From assembly GCA_016840035.1 (NCBI GenBank), contig JAEOTC010000066.1, positions 1 to 31,518 on the forward strand: 31,518 bases of DNA, read 5' to 3'. Below are positions 1-31,511 of the stretch, piece by piece (position 1 is the first letter of the stretch; each line of letters opens with the position of its first letter). The translations under genes and the position numbers were made by a program. The notes beneath the pieces are model-generated. The model searched no databases and was not told where the DNA came from. It was given only the letters and a program-made list of their open reading frames with translations. This DNA comes from Candidatus Hodarchaeota archaeon (lineage in GTDB: Archaea; Asgardarchaeota; Heimdallarchaeia; Hodarchaeales; Hodarchaeaceae).

Positions 1-1955
1 AAAACAGAATCATAGAATTTATCGACATATGCAGTGATATATTGACCTCGTGAATCATATTCCAGATAATCATCTTGATCGATTTGGACAATATTTCCAC
101 TTTGCTCTCCAATACGTACGAACCAAGGGACTTTTCCCAGATCTGAATCTAGACCATACGTTCCGTATCCGTCAGAAACGAGGAGTGCAATGTAGGTAAC
201 ATCATACATTTTGGCAATCTTGAGTGATTGCCGCGGGTTAAGTACTAGCATACATCCCACGTTCCCTATCTTCGTTTTATTTATAGTAGCATTGTCAACG
301 AGTATAGTAGTGTTCGAATTGCCGCTTATCCAATACCCATAATCCCACCAAGATGCTGTAACATCATTTACCGTTGTATGATAATCTAACCAACCGATAG
401 CTTCTTGCCAATCATTACCAATTATTAGTGATTGTCCTTGACTTCCAGGTACAACTGTGAGAATTGAGGGAGCCTGTGTTGAATCAATAGCCGCTTGAGT
501 TGCGTTAAGGACTGAAAATAGTAGGAATAGTCCAATAAATGAAAATGCAATCGCTGTGTGTTCGTTAGACATTGGTTGTGTTAATCGTGTTTTTCTTCGA
601 CTTAAAGCGAATCGTTCTTGGAAAGTAAGTACAAATGGTAATAAGGTCTGGTCAATTGCTTTTGCGGCTAATAGTGCAGCTGCAGGTGCTAAGATTAATG
701 CTAATCGAACCATTGATCCAGCAAAATATATAGCAGTGAAACCAAAAATTAAAAGCAATAAATTTCTCTCTGTTGGTTTTTCATATAAATAATACAATGC
801 TAATGGTAATAAGAATAATAATATGCCATTATTTCTAAAGAAACCTGCCCAAGATACTAGTTGATGTTCGCTTACTGATTTTAAGATTGGTGTTTCATCT
901 CTAAAGAAAGGAAAAATTACTGTGAAGAATTTTGAAGAGAGATTAGTTGCTATTCCAGAGAAGAGAAGGATTACAATTCCGAGAACAATTCCTATTCCAA
1001 TGATTGCATAGTAAGATCGTATTCGTGCTTTGATGTCAGTTAGATCATAGATACTTGAGATATTTCTATAGAGCGTTACTAGAACTAGAAGACCGACAAT
1101 ACCTAGTGGAATTAATCCATCAGTTGATAATATTGATTCAGGTCCATTTCTAGGAATTAAAGTCATAATTAAGGACCCGATTATTACTGATCCTCCATAA
1201 GCAAGTAGTAGTCGATCTGAATCCTTTCTCATCAATATTAATACAAATGCATGAAGAGCTAAGAGATTGAATACATAAGTAGAAGCTCCCCATGAACCAG
1301 ATAGAACTCCTAAGCTAATACCTGCAAATAATGTCATTGTTGCAGATCCTGTTCTTAATGCTCTCGCATAGAAGTACAGAGTTAGTACCAAGAAAAGAAT
1401 CCCAAGAGCTTCATTATCGAAAAAACCAGCAATAGTCCGTTGTAAGTGACCTGCAGAGATTGAAAGAAATAATGCTGCAAGTAATCCAACTTTTTTATTA
1501 CTAATTTCTTTTCCTAAGAAGTAAATTGCCACGCAAGTAAGTGCCCCTAATAGAGGAGGTTGAAGATAAGCTACAAAATCCAATGGAACTTGGAATCCAA
1601 GTATGAGGAAAAATTGGTGCAATATAACTGCTGAGAGTGGTGTACCGATATATTGAGATCTTCCCCAATAACGTCCTTCAGGGTACCATGTTTGAGGGTC
1701 AACCCAGCTGAAAAACGCTCCTAATCCGTTGCTTTCGATATATTCTGCAGCTCGAAGCTGAGAAAAAGGATCGTTCGCCGCCAAGATAATTTCATAGGGT
1801 CTTAACATTGCTAAAATTCGAATTAGAAAAGCTAATACGAATATGAATATCAATGCTGTATAGCTAAATACTATTTCTCGGCTTATCGTCGTAGTTGCTG
1901 CATTATATCGCTCTCGAAGATCATTGGTTACTCGGTTTAGGATGACGGGGGACAC
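1..1955 (-). CDS. aglB: Oligosaccharyltransferase STT3/AglB catalytic subunit (partial; 3' end runs off the left edge)
   Basis: Not in the ORF track; translated by hand on the minus strand. GTG at 1955 with GGTGA 6 nt upstream. Motifs: ANDPFSQLR...WYPEGR, RTIAGFFDNEALG, PILKSVSEHQ, SWWDYGYWI (WWDYG at 336-350, same frame as the start), DNATINKT, DLGKVPWFVRI. Many hydrophobic segments. Confidence 0.95.
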   Translation of the reverse strand, partial: MSPVILNRVTNDLRERYNAATTTISREIVFSYTALIFIFVLAFLIRILAMLRPYEIILAANDPFSQLRAAEYIESNGLGAFFSWVDPQTWYPEGRYWGRSQYIGTPLSAVILHQFFLILGFQVPLDFVAYLQPPLLGALTCVAIYFLGKEISNKKVGLLAALFLSISAGHLQRTIAGFFDNEALGILFLVLTLYFYARALRTGSATMTLFAGISLGVLSGSWGASTYVFNLLALHAFVLILMRKDSDRLLLAYGGSVIIGSLIMTLIPRNGPESILSTDGLIPLGIVGLLVLVTLYRNISSIYDLTDIKARIRSYYAIIGIGIVLGIVILLFSGIATNLSSKFFTVIFPFFRDETPILKSVSEHQLVSWAGFFRNNGILLFLLPLALYYLYEKPTERNLLLLIFGFTAIYFAGSMVRLALILAPAAALLAAKAIDQTLLPFVLTFQERFALSRRKTRLTQPMSNEHTAIAFSFIGLFLLFSVLNATQAAIDSTQAPSILTVVPGSQGQSLIIGNDWQEAIGWLDYHTTVNDVTASWWDYGYWISGNSNTTILVDNATINKTKIGNVGCMLVLNPRQSLKIAKMYDVTYIALLVSDGYGTYGLDSDLGKVPWFVRIGEQSGNIVQIDQDDYLEYDSRGQYITAYVDKFYDSV

Positions 1956-5905: not shown

Positions 5906-7018
5906 GTGTTTCGTCGAATGGCAGCTGACATACTCGCTGAAGAACAACTTAAGCTGGAATTACTTCGAGTATTATCCAAATACTTTTTAAGACAGCTCGA
6001 AGAGCTTTTGAGAGATCAAACCGGAGCTTTTTTTCCTGTTGATCATTTATCGACACTAGAATTAGGAAAAAGGCTAGGAAAGAGAAAAGAGCTACAATTA
6101 ATGACAGTTTCTGTCTGTGACTCGCTACAAAATCGTGATTTTGATATTGATTTAGCCTTTAAATTCCACGAAAGCTCTGAAGCCGCAGTTGAGGAAGCAA
6201 GCGGCGCTGCATGGCTAGAGGATCTCCTTAAAACTAATAACAGACTAAAAACTGCGCGTTTACTATATTTTTCACGTGAGCACTCATTGTTAATATATGA
6301 AGGTTTATCAAAGCCCACAGAGTTTTTTGAAAATGAATTGGACATGCCACAAAAATTATTTCTTGCGGGGAGTGCCCTTCCTTATATTCATGGGCTTTTT
6401 GAACAAAAAATAGGTCTTGATCGATATCTTCATCTAATCACGGAAACTTTAAATGGATTGAATATATCTTCAAATGACCGTGATGAATTAAATTACCTTT
6501 TTAAGCATCCTTTAAAGCAAATGGGATTAAGTTTAGCAGGAGCTCACTGTTTCGGAGATTTTCATCCAGGAAATTTGATGTTTTATGAATCAAATACACC
6601 TCTTGAAAATACAGGAGATTCTCGTATGGATAAAACCATAATTTATCTAATTGATCCTGCTTATTTAGATAGAAATAGTTTTGTAGATCGTACTGAAGAT
6701 ATTGGAACATTTTTCGCGAAATTTGCCTATAATGACTATTCGTTAACACAGAATTTTGATAAGACTGTTTCAGATGTCGAACTCTTCTGTAAAGGGTATG
6801 ATCATACTTGCTCCTATAATGGGGTATCTTTATCTGATTATTATCCAGAAGGAATTACCATCGATTTTCATATTGCATTAGGAATACTAATTGAAAGTCT
6901 ATTCAAAACTAGATTGGCCAGATATACCCAACCAAATTCTATTAGTCCTTTAGTTCAAACGAGTGTTGATGCGGCAAAATTCATCCTAGAACGACGTCCT
7001 TTTCAAGGTCTTGAATGA
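5906..7018 (+). CDS. APH/choline-kinase-like (protein kinase-like fold) phosphotransferase
   Basis: HCFGDFHPGNLM (Brenner-type catalytic loop), YLIDP (metal-binding Asp), DRTEDIG, and an upstream AFKFH...EE. Substrate unknown. Start probably at the ATG at 5918. Confidence 0.7.
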   Translation: MFRRMAADILAEEQLKLELLRVLSKYFLRQLEELLRDQTGAFFPVDHLSTLELGKRLGKRKELQLMTVSVCDSLQNRDFDIDLAFKFHESSEAAVEEASGAAWLEDLLKTNNRLKTARLLYFSREHSLLIYEGLSKPTEFFENELDMPQKLFLAGSALPYIHGLFEQKIGLDRYLHLITETLNGLNISSNDRDELNYLFKHPLKQMGLSLAGAHCFGDFHPGNLMFYESNTPLENTGDSRMDKTIIYLIDPAYLDRNSFVDRTEDIGTFFAKFAYNDYSLTQNFDKTVSDVELFCKGYDHTCSYNGVSLSDYYPEGITIDFHIALGILIESLFKTRLARYTQPNSISPLVQTSVDAAKFILERRPFQGLE

Positions 7019-8365: not shown

Positions 8366-11300
8366 GTGGAACAATTAGCAAATGATGATAAGTGGGAAGT
8401 CCTTAAATCCCTGTATAATGAATTTGGATTAGTAAGGCAACACCTTTACTCCTTCAATGAGTTCGTTGATAAAAAACTAAATGAGATCGTCCAAGAACGG
8501 CCTAAAATTGAACCAGATATTGAAGGATTTTATGTAAAATTGGAAGGAATCGAGGTTGGAGAACCTTCCGTGAGGGAAGCTGACGGTTCTGAAAGAACTA
8601 TTTACCCCATGGAAGCCCGCGTAAGGAATTTGATATATTCAGCCCCCCTTAATCTGAAAATGCGACCAGTATATGTAGATGCAGGAATTGAGAAGGAAGA
8701 GGAAGTAATTGTTGCTTACATTGGTAGATTACCAATTATGTTAAAATCAAATTCATGTTTGTTACATAATCTAACCACTGAAGAATTAACACGATTAGGA
8801 GAAGATCCTGAAGACCCTGGTGGATATTTTATTATAAATGGATCAGAAAGAGTAATTGTTACCCAAGAATATCTTGTATCAAACCGTGTATTAGTAGATG
8901 AAGGTCGAAAAGGATCCTCAACAACTGCAGTAGCGAAGGTATTCAGCACCGTTGCAGGATTCCGTTCATTAGTTTCTGTTCAACGAAGGAAGGATGGACG
9001 GTTACTTGTGAATTTCTTTAGTGTTCCTAGACCCCTTCCATTAGCGGTTTTGATCAAGGCACTAGGCATTACTATAGATCGTGATATTGCGAATCTTGTT
9101 AGTAATGATCCTGAACTAATCCAAGAACTGCTACCTACGTTACGAGAAGCAGCAGAAATTGTAGATCAGGAAGAAGCCTTGGATTTCATTGGTAAACGAG
9201 TTGCTGTAGGACAAACTAGACAGTATCGAATTTTGCGAGCTAAACAGGTATTAGACAACTATTTGTTGCCACATGTTGGAAAAGATGCTAGTTATCGAAA
9301 ACAAAAAGCCCTATATCTTGCGCAAATGGCCTTAAAGGTCATAAAGCTTAATTTAAAAAGAATCGAGGCTGATGACAAAGATCATTATGCGAATAAGAGA
9401 TTGAAACTTGCTGGTGAAATGCTTACCAGTCTTTTCCGTGTTGCTTTTCATTCCCTTTATCGTGATATTAAGTATCAACTTGAAAAAGGAGCACGGAGAG
9501 GTAAATTACCAAATTTACGAGTAGCAATGCGAGCTGATGTTATTACTGAACGGATCCGTCATGCCTTAGCAACTGGCAATTGGGTAGGCGGAAAAGCAGG
9601 AGTATCGCAGTTATTAGATCGTACAAACTATATGTCTACTTATAGCCATCTTAGACGTGTAATTAGTCCTCTCATCCGAAGTCAAGCTCACTTTGAAGCT
9701 AGAGATTTACATGCTACTCATTGGGGAAAGATATGCCCAAATGAAACTCCAGAGGGGCCTAATTGTGGATTGGTGAAAAATCTTGCAATGCAAGCTTATA
9801 TCTCAATTGGCACACCCGACGAACCGGTTAAAGAGTTTATCTATCAAAATTGTAAAGCTATTCCAGTAACTGAAGACATCGACCATCAAGGCGTTCAAAT
9901 ATTACTAAATGGAAACCTTATTTCCACGACGAGAGAGCCACTCGAAACCTTCACCATGATCAGAAATGCAAGAAGAACTAATAAGCTCTATCATGAGATT
10001 AATTTGGCCTTCTTTGAAGAAAATCATGTTATCTCAATCAATACTGATGAAGGACGTGTTCGTAGACCATTAATCATACTTGATCCCTCAGAGAATCCAG
10101 AACAACCGGCTATTCCAAGACTCAAAATGGGGCATATTGAGAAATTACGGAAAGGTGACATAAAGTTTTCCGATTTGTTAAGAGAAGGAGTAATTGAATT
10201 TCTTGACGCAGAGGAAGAAGAAAATTCATTTATTGCGATGACTTTAGATGAAATTGAAGTAAATCATACACATGTAGAAATTTCTCCTTCCGCAATATTA
10301 GGCATATGTGCGTCCATCATTCCGTATGCTGAACACAATCAATCACCTCGTAATACTTATGAAGCGGGAATGACAAAACAAGCTCTAGGACTTTATGCTT
10401 CTAATTTCTACTTCCGAACTGATCGTCGTGCTCATATATTACAAGCTCCTCAAATACCTTTAGTGGGTAGTAAACCAATGGAGGTCATTGGGTTCAATGA
10501 TCGTCCTGCTGGACAAAATTTCATCGTGGCAATCTTGAGTTTCCAGGGTTACAACATCGAAGATGCTATCATACTTAATAGAGCTAGTGTTCAGAGAGGT
10601 TTAGCTCGAAGTCATTTCTTTAGATCATATGTTGGTGAGGAGAAGAAGTATTTAGGCGGACAAGAAGACAGGTTCGAGATTCCTCAAAAAGGAGTGCGTG
10701 GGTATCGTGCAAAAGAAGTTTATAGGCATTTGAGCGAGGTCGATGGTATTATTGAACCAGAGATTGAAGTAGGAGGAGGAGATATCTTAGTTGGACGGAC
10801 TTCTCGACCACGTTTTCTAGAAGAATACATTGAACTAGATTCATTTGAGTCTGCAACTCCCCAACGAAGAGAAACAAGCCTTGCTATCCGTCATGGCGAG
10901 AAAGGTATTGTTGACGCGGTAATTCTGACTGAAACTTCTGAAGGAAGTACTTTGGTAAAGATAAAAGTTCGTGATCAAAGAGTTCCCGAGTTAGGAGACA
11001 AATTTGCATCTCGACATGGCCAGAAGGGAATCATTGGAAATGTTGTTCCACAAAGTGATATGCCTTTTACAGAAGAGGGAATTGTACCAGATTTAATCAT
11101 CAACCCACATGCCATTCCAAGCCGAATGACGGTGGGCCAAATAATTGAATGTATGAGTGCTATTGTTGCTTGTTATGAAGGTAAACAAATTGACGCGACT
11201 CTTTTTGAATCTCCTGATCCTGAAGATATTGCTGATCGTTTGAGAAATTTAGGTTTTCATCCCTACGCTGAGTCCGTCATGTATGATGGAATGACTGGTC

Positions 11301-11737
11301 AAAAACTTCCTGCACGAATATTTATCGGGCCAACTTATTATCAAAAACTACATCATCTTGTATCTGATAAAATTCATGCTCGGGCACGTGGACCTATTCA
11401 GATCCTCACTCGTCAACCTACAGAAGGACGTGCACGTGAAGGAGGGCTGAGATTCGGCGAGATGGAACGTGATTGTCTGATTGGACACGGAGCTGCTTTA
11501 TTATTAAAAGAACGGTTACTAGAGGAATCAGATAAAACTGAAATCTTTATTTGTGAGAATTGTGGGGTGATAGCAACGTGGGATCGAAAAAAGGATCAAA
11601 CTTACTGTAGTATCTGTGGGACAGTAGATACTGGGATTTATAAGATTGCGATATCTTATGCATTTAAACTATTGTTGCAGGAATTAATGGCTCTGACAAT
11701 TAAACCTCAAATTGTGTTAGCAGACAGTACATATTAA
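8366..11737 (+). CDS. rpoB: DNA-directed RNA polymerase subunit B (Rpo2), unsplit
   Basis: DPGGYFIINGSERV, ETPEGPNCGLVKNL, GYNIEDA, GDKFASRHGQKG, NPHAIPSRMT, RQPTEGRAREGGLRFGEMERD and a C-terminal CxxC/CxxC clamp zinc site. GTG start after GAGGT. Confidence 0.99.
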   Translation: MEQLANDDKWEVLKSLYNEFGLVRQHLYSFNEFVDKKLNEIVQERPKIEPDIEGFYVKLEGIEVGEPSVREADGSERTIYPMEARVRNLIYSAPLNLKMRPVYVDAGIEKEEEVIVAYIGRLPIMLKSNSCLLHNLTTEELTRLGEDPEDPGGYFIINGSERVIVTQEYLVSNRVLVDEGRKGSSTTAVAKVFSTVAGFRSLVSVQRRKDGRLLVNFFSVPRPLPLAVLIKALGITIDRDIANLVSNDPELIQELLPTLREAAEIVDQEEALDFIGKRVAVGQTRQYRILRAKQVLDNYLLPHVGKDASYRKQKALYLAQMALKVIKLNLKRIEADDKDHYANKRLKLAGEMLTSLFRVAFHSLYRDIKYQLEKGARRGKLPNLRVAMRADVITERIRHALATGNWVGGKAGVSQLLDRTNYMSTYSHLRRVISPLIRSQAHFEARDLHATHWGKICPNETPEGPNCGLVKNLAMQAYISIGTPDEPVKEFIYQNCKAIPVTEDIDHQGVQILLNGNLISTTREPLETFTMIRNARRTNKLYHEINLAFFEENHVISINTDEGRVRRPLIILDPSENPEQPAIPRLKMGHIEKLRKGDIKFSDLLREGVIEFLDAEEEENSFIAMTLDEIEVNHTHVEISPSAILGICASIIPYAEHNQSPRNTYEAGMTKQALGLYASNFYFRTDRRAHILQAPQIPLVGSKPMEVIGFNDRPAGQNFIVAILSFQGYNIEDAIILNRASVQRGLARSHFFRSYVGEEKKYLGGQEDRFEIPQKGVRGYRAKEVYRHLSEVDGIIEPEIEVGGGDILVGRTSRPRFLEEYIELDSFESATPQRRETSLAIRHGEKGIVDAVILTETSEGSTLVKIKVRDQRVPELGDKFASRHGQKGIIGNVVPQSDMPFTEEGIVPDLIINPHAIPSRMTVGQIIECMSAIVACYEGKQIDATLFESPDPEDIADRLRNLGFHPYAESVMYDGMTGQKLPARIFIGPTYYQKLHHLVSDKIHARARGPIQILTRQPTEGRAREGGLRFGEMERDCLIGHGAALLLKERLLEESDKTEIFICENCGVIATWDRKKDQTYCSICGTVDTGIYKIAISYAFKLLLQELMALTIKPQIVLADSTY

Positions 11738-11742
11738 TCAAG

Positions 11743-11952
11743 GTGGACATAATGGGAATTGATAGTAGTAGTAGAATGGGTTCAGCAAGTTTCTATAAAA
11801 GAGCAATGCGAATTCTGAAACTCGCCAAGAAGCCAGACAGATCAGAAGTAACGCTAGTTATTAAGATTACTGTAGCTGGAATGGCAGTATTGGGTTTAGT
11901 AGCCTTTGTTATACGGTTTATTATATTTGTAATACTTGGTCGTGAATTATAG
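11743..11952 (+). CDS. secE: Protein translocase subunit SecE / Sec61 gamma
   Basis: RILKLAKKPDRSE followed by a single TM helix (GMAVLGLVAFVI). Upstream of spt5. Confidence 0.93.
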   Translation: MDIMGIDSSSRMGSASFYKRAMRILKLAKKPDRSEVTLVIKITVAGMAVLGLVAFVIRFIIFVILGREL

Positions 11953-11990
11953 GAAATATTAGTCCTGAATTCTTCTTAAATTAAGATTAA

Positions 11991-12473
11991 GTGATTAGAA
12001 TGCTAGAAAAATATGGAATTTACTGCTACAAGGTGAAAAAGGGCCAAGAATTCAATGCCGCGGAATCAATTGCACAGTATGCTGATGTCCATCGTTTTGA
12101 TATAAACACTGTCCTTGTTACCGAAATACAAGGATATTTATTTATCGAGGGGAATATTCAAGATATTTTGAAGGCCGTTGAGAACGCTCATTATGTCAGT
12201 AAGCAATTAGGACGTGTCCCAATCTCGGAATTAGAAAATCAATTAGTTCCTACTCCAGTCATTGAGGGTTTGAAATCTGGAGATATTGTTGAAATTACGG
12301 AAGGTCCTTTCAAAGGAAGTCAAGCTAGGATTTCTTCAATTTATCAAGCTCGTGAGGAGATTACTGTTGATTTATTGACCAGTAGTGTTACAATACCAAT
12401 CGTACTCCATGCTGATTCAGTGAAATTGATACAACCCAGTGAAGAAGAGGACGAAACTGAAGTCGAGTTGTAA
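11991..12473 (+). CDS. spt5: Transcription elongation factor Spt5 (NusG family)
   Basis: NGN domain (GQE...GYLFIEG) plus KOW motif (GDIVEITEGPFKG). Confidence 0.95.
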   Translation: MIRMLEKYGIYCYKVKKGQEFNAAESIAQYADVHRFDINTVLVTEIQGYLFIEGNIQDILKAVENAHYVSKQLGRVPISELENQLVPTPVIEGLKSGDIVEITEGPFKGSQARISSIYQAREEITVDLLTSSVTIPIVLHADSVKLIQPSEEEDETEVEL

Positions 12474-12542
12474 AATCTTCTAGCTACTAGAGCCTAACTT
12501 ATTAATCCTGAAAAAAGAAAGCCTAGACGAAGGATATATTCT

Positions 12543-12574
12543 GCAGGAGTCTCGGTACTTCGAGTTCTAACTGC
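12543..12574 (+). promoter_or_regulatory. Candidate structured leader (internal-loop hairpin, uL1-binding-site-like) upstream of uL10
   Basis: GCAG-GA-GTCTCG-GTACTT-CGAGTT-CTAA-CTGC: a GC-rich hairpin in AT-rich intergenic DNA. Function is inferred only. Confidence 0.35.
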
Positions 12575-12592
12575 TTAATTAGCGAAAACGAG

Positions 12593-13516
12593 ATGAATAT
12601 TATGGCTATCTCAATCACAAAAATGAAAAGCGGCTCGGATAGAAAAGAAGCCCAAATTGAGACTATTGTTAAATTAGCAGAAGAGAATTCAGTCATTGGT
12701 ATTGCTGATTTGAGTGGAATAAGTTCTAAAGCAATTCAAGGAATAAGAACATCCTTAAGATCAGGAGAGGTAAGTGCGACACTTAAAGTCGCAAAAAATA
12801 CCCTGAAAGCAATCGCACTGGGAAAACTGGAAGGAAAAACTAGTAAAAAAACTGTAGAACAGTTTCTCGCAAATATCACTGGTTCCTGTGCCCTGATTTT
12901 TACCAATGAAAATCCTTTTAAACTTCAGCAATTTCTTAGTAGGAATTCCGTTCCTGCACCTGCAAAAGCAGGCCAGATCTCCCCTGTAGAAGTGTTTATC
13001 CCTGAAGGTGTTACCAATCTCGATCCAGGTCCAATAATTAGTGAATTAGGTTCAATCGGATTACAAACTAGGATAGAGAAAGGTAAAATAAGAATAACAA
13101 AAACTGCCAAGGTTCTCTCTGTCGGAGATACTGTTAGTGAAACTCATGCAGCTGTACTTACAAGACTTGGAATCCAACCGTTTAGTGTAAACCTTCAATT
13201 GAGCTATGTACTTGAGGGTGATGAGGTAATTGATGGAAGCATACTAGACGTTGATGAGGATCAAATTCTGTCTGATCTAAAACAAGCTTATATGAATGCT
13301 TTAGCTCTTGCAGTTGATCCAAGCGTGAATTATTATTCAATGCAATCAATTCCAGTTTTACTTAGTAATGCAGCACGTCAAGCTTTTAATCTATCTATAG
13401 AATCGAATTACATCACACAAGATAATCTCAATATATTACTGGCGAAAACAAAAGCCCAGGCAAATACATTGAAGGGAAAAGTATCTGATTCAAAAATAAA
13501 ATTCAAAGAATACTGA
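12593..13516 (+). CDS. rplP0: 50S ribosomal protein uL10 (P0)
   Basis: KVAKNTL, LIFTNENPFKL, PAPAKAGQISP, GVTNLDPGP, LTRLGIQP, including the archaeal/eukaryotic insertion domain. No acidic C-terminal tail. Confidence 0.95.
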   Translation: MNIMAISITKMKSGSDRKEAQIETIVKLAEENSVIGIADLSGISSKAIQGIRTSLRSGEVSATLKVAKNTLKAIALGKLEGKTSKKTVEQFLANITGSCALIFTNENPFKLQQFLSRNSVPAPAKAGQISPVEVFIPEGVTNLDPGPIISELGSIGLQTRIEKGKIRITKTAKVLSVGDTVSETHAAVLTRLGIQPFSVNLQLSYVLEGDEVIDGSILDVDEDQILSDLKQAYMNALALAVDPSVNYYSMQSIPVLLSNAARQAFNLSIESNYITQDNLNILLAKTKAQANTLKGKVSDSKIKFKEY

Positions 13517-28265: not shown

Positions 28266-28688
28266 TTATTCTTCTTCCTCAGTATGAACCAGCTTCCTAT
28301 TACTTCTAACCGTTACTCTACCCGAGTACCGAAATACTTGACTACAATCAGGGCAATACCAATATTTTCTTGATGCTTCATCCCCACTAGAAAATTGATA
28401 GAATCCTTGAAATATTGCATTGGGATGTCGACATCGTTTATTTTTTCGTTGTTTGTAAGTTTGGGTCATTAATTTTGGGATTGGAGGTGGTTCATTTTCT
28501 AAAATTCTCGTCTTATCCTTCTCGGTGTGTTTAATAACTGTAGTTTCTTGAAACGCTACTTTATTAACTTTTTTTCCTTCAAGAATCTCTTTTTGACATT
28601 TTGTACACCAATATATCAATTTCCTTTCTGGTCCAACCCTTTGTGTTGTAATAAGGGTACCACAAGTTTCACAGAAAGGACTGTTCAC
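28266..28688 (-). CDS. TFS/RpoM (Rpb9/RPC11/RPA12-like) double zinc-ribbon protein, atypical
   Basis: N-terminal FCETCG...CTKC. C-terminal CRH...QFSSGDE...WYCPDC resembles the QxRxADE hairpin of TFS. GTG start after AGGAG. Confidence 0.7.
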   Translation of the reverse strand: MNSPFCETCGTLITTQRVGPERKLIYWCTKCQKEILEGKKVNKVAFQETTVIKHTEKDKTRILENEPPPIPKLMTQTYKQRKNKRCRHPNAIFQGFYQFSSGDEASRKYWYCPDCSQVFRYSGRVTVRSNRKLVHTEEEE

Positions 28689-30869: not shown

Positions 30870-30968
30870 AAGGAGCATTGCACTTTTAGTTCCTTGAGAT
30901 ATCAGTAGAAAAACAAAAAACCCTGCAATAAAAGCTCCCCTTGAACTGTTTTTTGAGGTTTAACGCAT

Positions 30969-31511
30969 TTGACTGGGCGTAAAGATCGAGTTATTGATGG
31001 TGCAAAGTCTATTCTATTAACCAGAGGCTTTGAAGTTACTTCCGAAGTTGAGAATGAGGAATATCACGATATTTTCGGGAAAAATCCAGAGGGTCAGACA
31101 ATTATTGTTCGAATTCCTGAGAAAGAAGTTGTTGGTGTTAAGGAATTAAGGGATTATAAGGAAGAGATTGAGGAGAAGAAGTACGATTACGCCTTATTAC
31201 TTGCTTTGAATAAATATACTCATTATGCTAAGAGAGAAGCTAAAGCAGCGGATATCGAGACTTTTTCAATTAAGTTTCCATTCTTCAATCTTTTTAAGCA
31301 TTATCTCGTTCCCGTTCATGAATTCGCTACTGAGTCAGAAATTCAAGAATTAGAGGAAAAATATTCAATTTTTACTTATCAACTTCCTAAGATCTCTGCA
31401 GAAGATCCAGCAGTCCAACTTTTAGGAGCTAAAGTTGGCGATGTGTTGAAAATTAAAAGAGATAGTCCAACTGCTGGTGAATTCTTGGTTTATCGAACAG
31501 TAGTTCCATAA
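30969..31511 (+). CDS. rpoH: RNA polymerase subunit Rpo5/Rpb5, two-domain eukaryote-like form
   Basis: C-terminal HYLVPVH...QLPKISAEDPAV..LGAKVGDVLKIKRDSPTAG...YRTV is RpoH/Rpb5-C, preceded by an extra ~105-aa N-terminal domain. TTG start after GAGGT. Confidence 0.93.
   Translation: MTGRKDRVIDGAKSILLTRGFEVTSEVENEEYHDIFGKNPEGQTIIVRIPEKEVVGVKELRDYKEEIEEKKYDYALLLALNKYTHYAKREAKAADIETFSIKFPFFNLFKHYLVPVHEFATESEIQELEEKYSIFTYQLPKISAEDPAVQLLGAKVGDVLKIKRDSPTAGEFLVYRTVVP

What the first reader, a model, noticed from the sequence alone, without database searches (positions are those of the whole stretch)
30969..31511. Full-length eukaryote-type Rpb5 with the N-terminal jaw domain
Seen: 180 aa, of which only the last ~75 correspond to RpoH. 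Known: classical archaeal Rpo5 is only the C-terminal assembly domain, while eukaryotic Rpb5 adds an N-terminal jaw domain that contacts downstream DNA. By-eye comparison with human RPB5 as recalled shows co-linear matches: LTRGFEV/HDRGYLV, IPEKEVVGVKELRDY/FPEEPKVGIKTIKVY, YTHYAKRE/MTPSAKQS, IETF/LEQF. Inference: this archaeal RNAP has a eukaryote-like jaw, which bears on the origin of eukaryotic polymerases. It may already be reported for some Asgard or TACK lineages.
Basis: partly seen in the sequence, partly recalled or inferred. Interest (0 to 1): 0.75.

Follow-up and report, generated by a model that had tools for sequence, protein, structure and literature searches.

The report
Archaeal Rpo5 with Rpb5-type jaw
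This Heimdall-group (Hodarchaeales-type) Asgard archaeon makes its only RNA polymerase subunit Rpo5/RpoH as a two-domain protein. The extra front half is a dead Mrr-type nuclease fold homologous to the "jaw" of eukaryotic Rpb5, a part that the reviews I could read say archaea lack.

Summary
Window 30969-31511 (+) encodes a 180-aa protein. Residues 106-180 are a textbook RpoH/Rpb5_C domain. Residues 1-105 are a conserved, purifying-selected PD-(D/E)XK domain (dN/dS 0.027) that has lost the catalytic (E/Q)xK.

A profile of the N-domain alone finds only eukaryotic Rpb5 jaws in the PDB (human E 1e-8). Against 1.84 billion proteins it retrieves true Rpb5 and true Mrr nucleases about equally, so the domain is an intermediate. 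It shares with eukaryotic jaws the lysine-to-proline change, the RG[YF] motif and the T-x-x-A (TPSA-equivalent) motif. The full-length model superposes on Rpb5 at TM 0.80-0.87.

Pfam's own Rpb5_N model misses this protein.

It is the genome's only rpoH and lies outside any rpo operon. The long form occurs in 139 of 201 sampled Asgard genomes (20 of 27 families) and in Bathyarchaeia; four sampled families have the short form. NCBI often truncates the gene to 80 aa.

I found no paper reporting it. This scan has noted the same thing about 70 times in other genomes.

The parts
30969..31511 (+). rpo5/rpoH gene, long form (180 codons plus TAA stop); TTG start
   Evidence: It is the only Rpb5_C locus in the 4.3-Mb, 87%-complete genome. 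The same frame and the same non-ATG start occur in all 9 sampled same-genus genomes.
30955..30959 (+). Shine-Dalgarno-like GAGGT, about 10 nt upstream of the TTG start
   Evidence: Read from the sequence. A GGAG/GAGG motif sits at the same distance upstream of the TTG/GTG start in four same-genus loci.
30969..31283 (+). N-terminal jaw-like domain (residues 1-105): inactivated PD-(D/E)XK / Mrr-type fold with alpha-beta-beta-beta-alpha-beta-alpha-beta topology
   Evidence: Mrr_cat 22-24 bits against a cut-off of 21. Models have pLDDT 87.6 and 88.5. N-only profile hits Rpb5 jaws. N-only fold gives TM 0.72-0.79 to Rpb5. dN/dS is 0.027.
31023..31031 (+). R19-G20-F21 at the end of helix alpha1, the counterpart of the eukaryotic invariant DRGY motif
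   Evidence: R19 is invariant in A1 and A2 and aligns with eukaryotic RGY. Yeast R26E in DRGY is lethal (PMC1802627).
31068..31070 (+). D34, the only retained residue of the Mrr catalytic signature (DGGxD ... Q/E-x-K)
   Evidence: Three-way alignment of Asgard, eukaryotic and Mrr domains.
31110..31118 (+). R48-I49-P50 in place of the catalytic (Q/E)-x-K; the lysine is replaced by proline, as in eukaryotic jaws (F-F-P)
   Evidence: P50 is at least 90% conserved in A1.
31218..31229 (+). T84-H85-Y86-A87, the counterpart of the eukaryotic TPSA element that contacts downstream DNA
   Evidence: Aligned by HMMER with MTPSAK. T84 is invariant in A1. Other Asgard lineages read TPAA. The role of TPSA is taken from PMC6690254.
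31269..31271 (+). ATT codon 101, the position where NCBI's 80-aa 'subunit H' calls in related genomes begin (annotation truncation)
   Evidence: the 80-aa records start MKFPFF, which equals residues 101-106 here.
31284..31508 (+). C-terminal assembly domain (residues 106-180), the classical RpoH / Rpb5_C
   Evidence: PF01191 E 1.8e-24. NF007129 scores 90.5 bits against 83. 57% identity and rmsd 1.4-1.6 A to Thermococcus/Pyrococcus RpoH. H111, P115, D146, R164 and R176 correspond to yeast H147, P151, D182, R200 and R212 (offset 36) and are invariant in A1.
8366..11737 (+). rpoB (unsplit Rpo2, 1123 aa), context only; it lies 19 kb upstream of rpo5 and not adjacent to it

Best explanation
The gene encodes the genome's single Rpo5/RpoH subunit of RNA polymerase in a two-domain form that is the archaeal counterpart of full-length eukaryotic Rpb5.

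Shown here:
- The C-terminal 75 residues are the classical assembly domain. All five residues that contact Rpb1 in yeast are conserved.
- The N-terminal 105 residues are a translated, strongly constrained PD-(D/E)XK (Mrr-type) domain that has lost the catalytic (E/Q)xK and DGG elements, so it should not cut DNA.
- By sequence and by fold this domain is specifically related to the Rpb5 jaw. It shares the lysine-to-proline replacement, the RG[YF] motif and the T-x-x-A motif, and it has the same position and orientation relative to the C-domain.

Inferred by homology:
- The C-domain docks on the C-terminal part of Rpo1.
[quoted passage not shown] There it stabilises downstream duplex or offers a surface for initiation and elongation factors.

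Evolutionary inference: an inactivated Mrr-like nuclease domain fused to RpoH within archaea, and eukaryotes inherited this two-domain subunit and then elaborated it with a ~20-residue insertion. The fusion is now found in most Asgard families and in Bathyarchaeia.
For: - Architecture and uniqueness.
- Translation of the N-domain: dN/dS 0.027 against 0.019 for the C-domain; no in-frame ATG; the only earlier start-type codon is TTG at codon 80, inside the domain; a conserved SD-like motif precedes the shared TTG/GTG start.
- Full-length profile A1: eukaryotic Rpb5 scores 107-122 bits, above short archaeal RpoH at 102 or less, and alignments reach profile positions 15-44.
- N-only profile A2: the only significant PDB hits are Rpb5 jaws, human 1e-8, Arabidopsis 2.7e-8 (profile 6-93 to chain 11-111), yeast 2e-4.
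- Library-wide: A2 retrieves proteins that carry PF03871 at 99-135 bits, for example P0177 at E 4e-11.
- PF03871 hits 6 of 21 Asgard N-domains.
- Fold: the top 36 Foldseek hits are Rpb5 chains of Pol I-V at TM 0.80-0.87 over about 200 columns. The N-only model gives TM 0.72-0.79 to Rpb5 against 0.50-0.68 for nucleases.
- Shared derived residues.
- Rpb1-contact residues conserved.
- Phylogeny: eukaryote-type Rpb5s form one clade (98/90) nested among the archaeal long forms.
- Jaw function: taken from PMC1802627 and PMC6690254.
Against: - Pfam's Rpb5_N model does not detect this protein, whereas Mrr_cat does.
- In the exhaustive search, true Mrr nucleases score about as well as true Rpb5 jaws (best 56.0 against 58.8 bits).
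- By Foldseek E-value the nuclease EndoMS/NucS ranks first for the N-domain alone. The N-domain is therefore not demonstrably closer to Rpb5_N than to nucleases on overall score.
- The TPSA element is only half conserved here (T-H-Y-A).
- In yeast, the cleft-exposed prolines are dispensable.
- The tree backbone is unresolved and holds only three confirmed eukaryote-type sequences on long branches.
- No experimental data exist on assembly or DNA contact for any archaeal long form.
- Four sampled Asgard families use the short form, so the jaw is not indispensable.
Confidence: 0.85

Rival explanations
1. Convergent fusion. Archaea and the eukaryotic stem each fused a different Mrr-type nuclease domain to RpoH independently, so the archaeal N-domain is an analogue of the Rpb5 jaw and not its ancestor or orthologue.
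For: The N-only profile scores Mrr nucleases and Rpb5 jaws about equally. All 21 Asgard N-domains hit Mrr_cat but only 6 hit Rpb5_N. Mrr-type domains are mobile and fuse promiscuously, for example with RuvB-type, FtsK-type and response-regulator modules.
Against: The two share the same domain order, linker position and inter-domain orientation (full-length TM 0.80-0.87). Both have the same inactivating lysine-to-proline change followed by the same P-E-x-x-x-VG[VI] context, the same RG[YF] and the same T-x-x-A. Eukaryote-type sequences nest within the archaeal long forms as one clade. No PDB nuclease is significant with the N-only profile, whereas Rpb5 is.
Confidence: 0.07
2. Reverse transfer. 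The two-domain Rpb5 arose in eukaryotes or giant viruses and was later transferred into Asgard archaea and Bathyarchaeia.
For: Giant-virus and eukaryotic clusters are the nearest feature-space neighbours of the N-part in the Atlas, but all scores are below 0.9, so this is a lead only. The tree backbone is unresolved.
Against: The long form is present in 139 of 201 sampled Asgard genomes across 20 of 27 families, in conserved local synteny within the genus, and also in Bathyarchaeia. The archaeal domain is the more Mrr-like, insertion-free and therefore less derived state. The C-domain is more similar to euryarchaeal RpoH (76 bits) than to eukaryotic Rpb5.
Confidence: 0.03
3. Only the short form is made. 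Translation starts internally, as in NCBI's 80-aa calls, and the upstream 100 codons are untranslated or are a separate remnant.
For: NCBI annotates 80-aa 'subunit H' proteins in several close relatives and labels one N-domain fragment 'restriction endonuclease, partial'.
Against: Those calls start at what is an ATT codon here. The N-domain shows 37.5 synonymous against 6.5 non-synonymous differences to its closest relative, with no stop or frameshift, and stays in frame with the C-domain across the phylum. An SD-like motif precedes the upstream TTG/GTG start. Other pipelines aa.
Confidence: 0.02
4. The N-domain is an active nuclease, for example a defence or repair activity tethered to RNA polymerase.
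For: It passes Pfam's Mrr_cat threshold (22.4-24.3 bits against 21) and keeps one catalytic aspartate, D34.
Against: The (Q/E)-x-K motif reads R-I-P and the DGG element is lost. These positions vary freely among Asgard homologs (R, Q, H, Y or V at the Q/E site), and D34 itself is E, N, V or R in other lineages. The domain also matches the 'inactive REase' family NA-iREase1, below its cut-off.
Confidence: 0.02

Closest known systems
Eukaryotic Rpb5 / RPABC1 / POLR2E (Pfam PF03871 Rpb5_N + PF01191 Rpb5_C; e.g. PDB 1dzf, 8uhd_E, 7vba_E, 7eu0_E)
   Same: Two-domain order, with a PD-(D/E)XK jaw followed by the assembly domain. The whole-chain fold and inter-domain orientation match (TM 0.80-0.87). 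The C-domain residues that bind Rpb1 are conserved. In the jaw, RG[YF], the P-E-x-x-x-VG[VI] context, T-x-x-A and the loss of the catalytic lysine to proline are shared.
   Different: The jaw is about 105 aa rather than about 140 aa. It lacks a ~20-residue insertion after the first strand and part of the linker. It is not detected by the PF03871 model. It remains recognisably Mrr_cat-like. It serves a single archaeal polymerase rather than Pol I, II and III. TPSA reads THYA.
Classical archaeal Rpo5 / RpoH (about 75-85 aa; PDB 4qiw_H, 8cro_H, 7ok0_H, 1hmj)
   Same: The C-terminal domain is 56-58% identical to Thermococcales RpoH with rmsd 1.4-1.6 A. It passes the NCBIfam equivalog NF007129. It is a single-copy gene.
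   Different: It carries an extra 105-aa N-terminal domain. It is not located upstream of rpoB: rpoB is 19 kb away and rpoA is on another contig.
Mrr-type restriction endonuclease catalytic domain (Pfam PF04471 Mrr_cat) and NucS/EndoMS (PDB 5gkj)
   Same: Same alpha-beta-beta-beta-alpha-beta core. It scores above the Mrr_cat gathering threshold. The N-only profile retrieves genuine Mrr nucleases at E 3e-10 to 1e-6 over the whole domain. NucS is the top N-only Foldseek hit by E-value.
   Different: The catalytic DGGxD...(Q/E)xK signature is degenerate (only D34 is left). The domain is fused to an RNA polymerase subunit rather than to DNA-recognition or ATPase modules. TM-scores to nucleases (0.50-0.68) are lower than to Rpb5 jaws (0.72-0.79).
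Rpo13 of Sulfolobales RNA polymerase (named from the literature only)
   Same: According to the 2026 review read, Rpo13 lies near the N-terminal part of Rpo5 and binds double-stranded DNA. It is thus a different archaeal solution for contacting DNA in the region where the eukaryotic jaw sits.
   Different: It is an unrelated small helical subunit and not a domain of Rpo5. I did not search for it in this genome.

Membership tests
Rpo5/RpoH - Rpb5 C-terminal assembly domain (PF01191; NCBIfam NF007129) | Profile match above the curated thresholds | tested here: met
   PF01191 scores 85.7 bits against 23.5, over residues 106-178 and the full model 1-73. NF007129 equivalog scores 90.5 bits against 83.
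Rpo5/RpoH - Rpb5 C-terminal assembly domain (PF01191; NCBIfam NF007129) | Conserved residues that contact the largest subunit (yeast H147, P151, D182, R200, R212) | tested here: met
   H111, P115, D146, R164 and R176 correspond at a constant offset of 36 in the phmmer alignment to 1dzf. All are invariant in the 33-sequence alignment. The residue list comes from PMC1802627.
Rpo5/RpoH - Rpb5 C-terminal assembly domain (PF01191; NCBIfam NF007129) | Fold of the solved archaeal subunit | tested here: met
   TM 0.81-0.89 normalised to target and rmsd 1.4-1.8 A to 9bct_H, 8cro_H, 4qiw_H and 7ok0_H.
Rpo5/RpoH - Rpb5 C-terminal assembly domain (PF01191; NCBIfam NF007129) | Physical incorporation into RNA polymerase | not testable with these tools
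   No experimental data. Being the only Rpb5_C locus in the genome makes it the only candidate.
Full-length (eukaryote-type) Rpb5: PF03871 + PF01191 | A jaw domain directly N-terminal to Rpb5_C in one polypeptide | tested here: met
   One uninterrupted frame with N 1-105 and C 106-180. The same holds in all 20 Asgard loci fetched.
Full-length (eukaryote-type) Rpb5: PF03871 + PF01191 | Match to the Pfam Rpb5_N model PF03871 | tested here: not met
   No hit at E up to 10 for this protein, and no hit in a six-frame search of the genome. 6 of 21 Asgard N-domains do hit it, with best E 1.6e-5.
Full-length (eukaryote-type) Rpb5: PF03871 + PF01191 | Detectable sequence homology of the N-domain alone to bona fide Rpb5 jaws | tested here: met
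   The N-only profile A2 hits human 28jc_E at 1e-8, Arabidopsis 7eu0_E at 2.7e-8 and yeast 1dzf at 2e-4, with no other significant PDB hit. Library-wide it hits PF03871-positive proteins at E 4e-11 to 7e-7.
Full-length (eukaryote-type) Rpb5: PF03871 + PF01191 | Two-domain fold and inter-domain arrangement of solved Rpb5 | tested here: met
   The top 36 Foldseek hits are Rpb5 chains at TM 0.80-0.87 normalised to the query over about 200 columns. The N-only model gives TM 0.72-0.79. These are predicted models, not experimental structures.
Full-length (eukaryote-type) Rpb5: PF03871 + PF01191 | Invariant DRGY motif of helix alpha1 and the TPSA DNA-contact element | tested here: inconclusive
   R19-G20-F21 is present and R19 is invariant. 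TPSA is represented by T84-H85-Y86-A87, so T and A are kept and P and S are not. Other Asgard lineages read TPAA.
Full-length (eukaryote-type) Rpb5: PF03871 + PF01191 | Contact with downstream DNA and factors as the lower jaw | not testable with these tools
   Inferred from homology only. Eukaryotic data are cited from PMC1802627 and PMC6690254.
Mrr-type restriction endonuclease (PF04471 Mrr_cat) | Profile match above the gathering threshold | tested here: met
   22.4 bits for the whole protein and 24.3 bits for the N-part, against a cut-off of 21. 21 of 21 Asgard N-domains match.
Mrr-type restriction endonuclease (PF04471 Mrr_cat) | Catalytic signature D...(D/E/Q)-x-K | tested here: not met
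   Only D34 is retained. The (Q/E)-x-K position reads R48-I49-P50, and the DGG element is absent. I do not file this protein as an active nuclease.
NACHT-associated inactive REase 1 (PF22722) | Profile match above the gathering threshold | tested here: not met
   22.8-24.4 bits against a cut-off of 27. No NACHT module is present.

The most novel reading that the evidence does not exclude
The jaw half of Rpb5, which reviews treat as one of the few features that are both eukaryote-specific and shared by Pol I, II and III, was invented in archaea. A dead Mrr-type nuclease fused to RpoH before eukaryogenesis, and the fusion is still used by most Asgard lineages and by Bathyarchaeia as a downstream-DNA or factor-binding lower jaw. 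Variants with tandem paralogs, two or three jaw copies, or C-terminal tails suggest that this polymerase surface is being actively remodelled in Asgard archaea.
Probability: 0.7. Interest if true: 0.7.

Novelty: new variant of a known kind. Interest (0 to 1): 0.62.

Why it matters
Reviews state that archaeal RpoH lacks the Rpb5 N-terminal domain (PMC6690254). They call that module "typically eukaryotic" (PMC1802627), and a survey of PD-(D/E)XK domains lists it as Eukaryota-only (PMC3424549). An archaeal two-domain Rpo5 that bridges Mrr nucleases and Rpb5_N gives the jaw a concrete origin. It removes one item from the list of eukaryote-only polymerase innovations and adds an informational eukaryote-like feature that the main Asgard surveys I could read do not mention. 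It also makes jaw function testable in a simpler, single-polymerase system. On the practical side, it exposes a recurrent annotation error: 80-aa truncated calls and fragments labelled "restriction endonuclease".

Tried and rejected
- **PF03871 test:** a direct search of the protein and of the whole genome found no hit. I read this as a limit of that 89-position model and not as evidence against homology, because the N-only reciprocal searches succeed.
- **The search for related loci with A2:** I used the full-length alignment instead.
- **The look-up of encoding contigs for P0144:** The origin of this unnamed 178-aa protein at the base of the eukaryote clade remains unknown.
- **Rpb8 (PF03870) in this genome:** uninformative, because the control detected nothing anywhere.
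- **ESM Atlas on the N-part:** all scores were at or below 0.84, so I used them only as leads.
- **Phylogeny:** it did not resolve which archaeal lineage is closest to eukaryotes. The weak Helarchaeota sister relation (87/74) should not be relied on, and there is no special affinity to this window's Hodarchaeales clade.
- **Literature:** seven full-text searches and twelve papers read gave no report of a long archaeal Rpo5. Subscription journals and supplementary tables were not covered.
- **Rejected ideas:**
  - Contamination or misassembly, because synteny and the gene are conserved in all 9 sampled same-genus genomes.
  - A second, short rpoH, because none was found (genome 87% complete).
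  - An active nuclease, because the catalytic motif is lost.

Full report
**The feature**

Window 30969-31511 (+) is an open reading frame of 180 codons with a TTG start. Pfam places residues 106-178 in RNA_pol_Rpb5_C (E 1.8e-24). NCBIfam's RpoH equivalog matches 106-179 above its cut-off. Residues 14-97 match Mrr_cat just above its gathering score, and NA-iREase1 and NucS_C below theirs. Pfam's Rpb5_N model (PF03871) gives no hit, either on the protein or in a six-frame search of the genome.

The window is the whole of contig C293 of a 4.3-Mb, 87%-complete genome, and this is that genome's only Rpb5_C locus. The closest named relatives are MAGs labelled Ca. Heimdallarchaeota B3_Heim and Ca. 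Hodarchaeota, at 95-97% identity over all 180 residues. The genome is therefore a Heimdallarchaeia, Hodarchaeales-type Asgard archaeon.

**The N-domain is real, translated and constrained**

- Against the closest relative, the N-domain shows 37.5 synonymous and 6.5 non-synonymous differences (dN/dS 0.027). This is like the C-domain, at 0.019.
- The gene has no in-frame ATG. The only start-type codon before the C-domain is TTG at codon 80, inside the domain.
- All five same-genus loci examined share a TTG or GTG start preceded by a GGAG/GAGG motif.
- All 20 Asgard loci I fetched carry the N and C domains in one frame.
- NCBI nevertheless annotates 80-aa "subunit H" proteins in several close relatives. 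These begin at what is an ATT codon (residue 101) here. One N-domain fragment is labelled "restriction endonuclease, partial". I read these as annotation artefacts.

**Homology to the Rpb5 jaw**

- A 33-sequence Asgard profile scores full-length eukaryotic Rpb5 (107-122 bits) above short archaeal RpoH (102 bits or less). Its alignments reach deep into the jaw.
- The decisive test used a profile of N-domains only (A2: 21 sequences, no C-domain residues). Its only significant PDB hits are Rpb5 jaws: human 1e-8, Arabidopsis 2.7e-8 over profile 6-93, and yeast 2e-4.
- Against 1.84 billion representative proteins, A2 retrieves long Rpo5 forms first. At 45-59 bits it then retrieves both genuine Rpb5 and genuine Mrr nucleases. 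The Rpb5 hits carry PF03871 at 99-135 bits, and the best is a sturgeon protein at E 4e-11. The nuclease hits carry PF04471 at 77-118 bits, and the best scores E 3e-10.
- All 21 Asgard N-domains hit Mrr_cat and 6 also hit Rpb5_N.

The archaeal domain is thus an intermediate that links two Pfam families. This is expected, because Rpb5_N is itself a PD-(D/E)XK domain (PMC3424549).

**Shared derived characters**

- Mrr nucleases carry DGGxD and (Q/R)-C-K. This protein keeps only D34 and reads R48-I49-P50.
- Eukaryotic jaws read F-F-P at the same place. They have the same lysine-to-proline change, followed by the same P-E-x-x-x-VG[VI] context.
- R19-G20-F21 matches the eukaryotic invariant DRGY, and R26E in that motif is lethal in yeast (PMC1802627). 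R19 is invariant in both of my alignments.
- T84-H85-Y86-A87 aligns with the TPSA element that contacts downstream DNA (PMC6690254). Other Asgard lineages read TPAA.
- In the C-domain, H111, P115, D146, R164 and R176 correspond, at a constant offset, to the five yeast residues critical for binding Rpb1. All five are invariant in the Asgard alignment.

**Structure**

- The full-length AlphaFold model (pLDDT 87.6) has the alpha-beta-beta-beta-alpha-beta-alpha-beta core.
- Its top 36 Foldseek hits are Rpb5 chains of Pol I-V, at TM 0.80-0.87 over about 200 columns. Short archaeal RpoH covers only 74 residues.
- The N-domain folded alone (pLDDT 88.5) gives TM 0.72-0.79 to Rpb5 jaws and 0.50-0.68 to NucS, AF1548 and MspJI-type nucleases. 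NucS ranks first by E-value.

**Distribution**

- The N-only profile finds the domain in 139 of 201 sampled genomes of the phylum, in 20 of 27 families.
- Genomes sampled from four of the seven families without it (f7, f13, f17, f18) have a classical short rpoH in open frames of 81-125 aa.
- A 182-aa long form is labelled Ca. Bathyarchaeia, so the architecture is not confined to Asgard archaea. Crenarchaeal genomes match only residues ~106-179.
- In a maximum-likelihood tree, the eukaryote-type sequences form one clade (98/90) nested in an unresolved comb of archaeal long forms. They show no supported affinity to this window's clade.

**Context**

The gene lies between a PAPS-reductase/PUA/4Fe-4S gene and, in relatives, a GIFT-domain gene. 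rpoB is 19 kb upstream and is followed by Spt5 and L10. rpoA is on another contig. The canonical rpoH-rpoB-rpoA operon is therefore dispersed in this genome.

**Mechanism, marked as inference**

The C-domain anchors the subunit on Rpo1. The dead-nuclease N-domain forms a lower jaw beside downstream DNA, as in Pol II.

**Novelty**

The reviews I read say archaea lack this domain. The 2026 review of archaeal small subunits and the two large Asgard surveys do not mention it. I cannot exclude a report in journals or supplements outside the held library. This scan has noted the same architecture about 70 times in at least 62 other genomes. I confirmed three of those leads independently: Bathyarchaeia, tandem pairs and multi-jaw forms.

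Noticed in passing
L015:341-905 and 984-1554; L020:932-1550 and 1546-2182 (family f10 genomes G108, G087; also G137, G197, G128, G185, G081): Two adjacent, intact, full-length (N+C) Rpo5 paralogs sit in tandem in many genomes of one Asgard family. Earlier scan notes call these genomes Thorarchaeota. In the tree the copies fall into different sub-clades of a group that also holds copies from other genomes, so the duplication is probably older than a single genome.
   Followed up: partly
L021:550-1945 (-) (G015, family f3); proteins P0135 (481 aa), P0142 (436 aa), P0186 (456 aa), P0151 (378 aa): These Rpo5 variants carry two or three tandem copies of the jaw-like domain ahead of a single Rpb5_C domain. 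They occur in families f3 and f5 of the same class as the window's genome.
   Followed up: partly
L008:991-1864 (+) (G154, family f2, genus g5); L012; protein P0127 (295 aa): In 17 of 17 genomes of genus g5 the Rpo5 frame is 226-364 aa (279 or more in 15 of 17). In the one locus examined (L008) about 95 residues follow the Rpb5_C domain. This C-terminal tail has unknown function, and I did not examine it further.
   Followed up: no
Proteins P0311-P0317 and P0309 (NCBI records of related Hodarchaeales/Heimdallarchaeota MAGs); window codon 101 at 31269-31271: Public annotation truncates this gene to 73-80 aa by starting at a rare codon (ATT here), or labels the N-domain fragment 'restriction endonuclease, partial'. 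The Bathyarchaeia cluster likewise mixes 182-aa calls with 72-81-aa calls.
   Followed up: yes
window 8366-13516 (+); G000:C71:16403-17338: An unsplit rpoB (1123 aa) is followed directly by Spt5/NusG (11991-12473) and ribosomal protein L10/P0 (12593-13516) rather than by rpoA. rpoA is on another contig. The usual archaeal rpoH-rpoB-rpoA cluster is broken up.
   Followed up: partly
Protein P0154 (561 aa): This long Rpo5 has its Rpb5_C domain split into residues 116-153 and 504-558 by about 350 residues that include a Cpn60/TCP-1 fragment. It could be a chimeric assembly or an insertion. I did not examine it.
   Followed up: no
Protein P0184 (827 aa): A response-regulator receiver plus a TackOD1 output domain is followed by three tandem Mrr-like domains that match the Asgard jaw profile. 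This shows that inactivated or repeated Mrr-type domains are also used in archaeal signalling proteins.
   Followed up: no
Protein P0144 (178 aa, on a 90.5-kb contig): This unnamed two-domain Rpo5-like protein branches at the base of the eukaryote-type Rpb5 clade (98/90).
   Followed up: partly
window 3-1955 (-); 5906-7018 (+); 28266-28688 (-): An STT3/AglB-type oligosaccharyltransferase gene runs off the window's start. Two ORFs, of 370 aa and 140 aa, have no Pfam match at E 1e-5.
   Followed up: no
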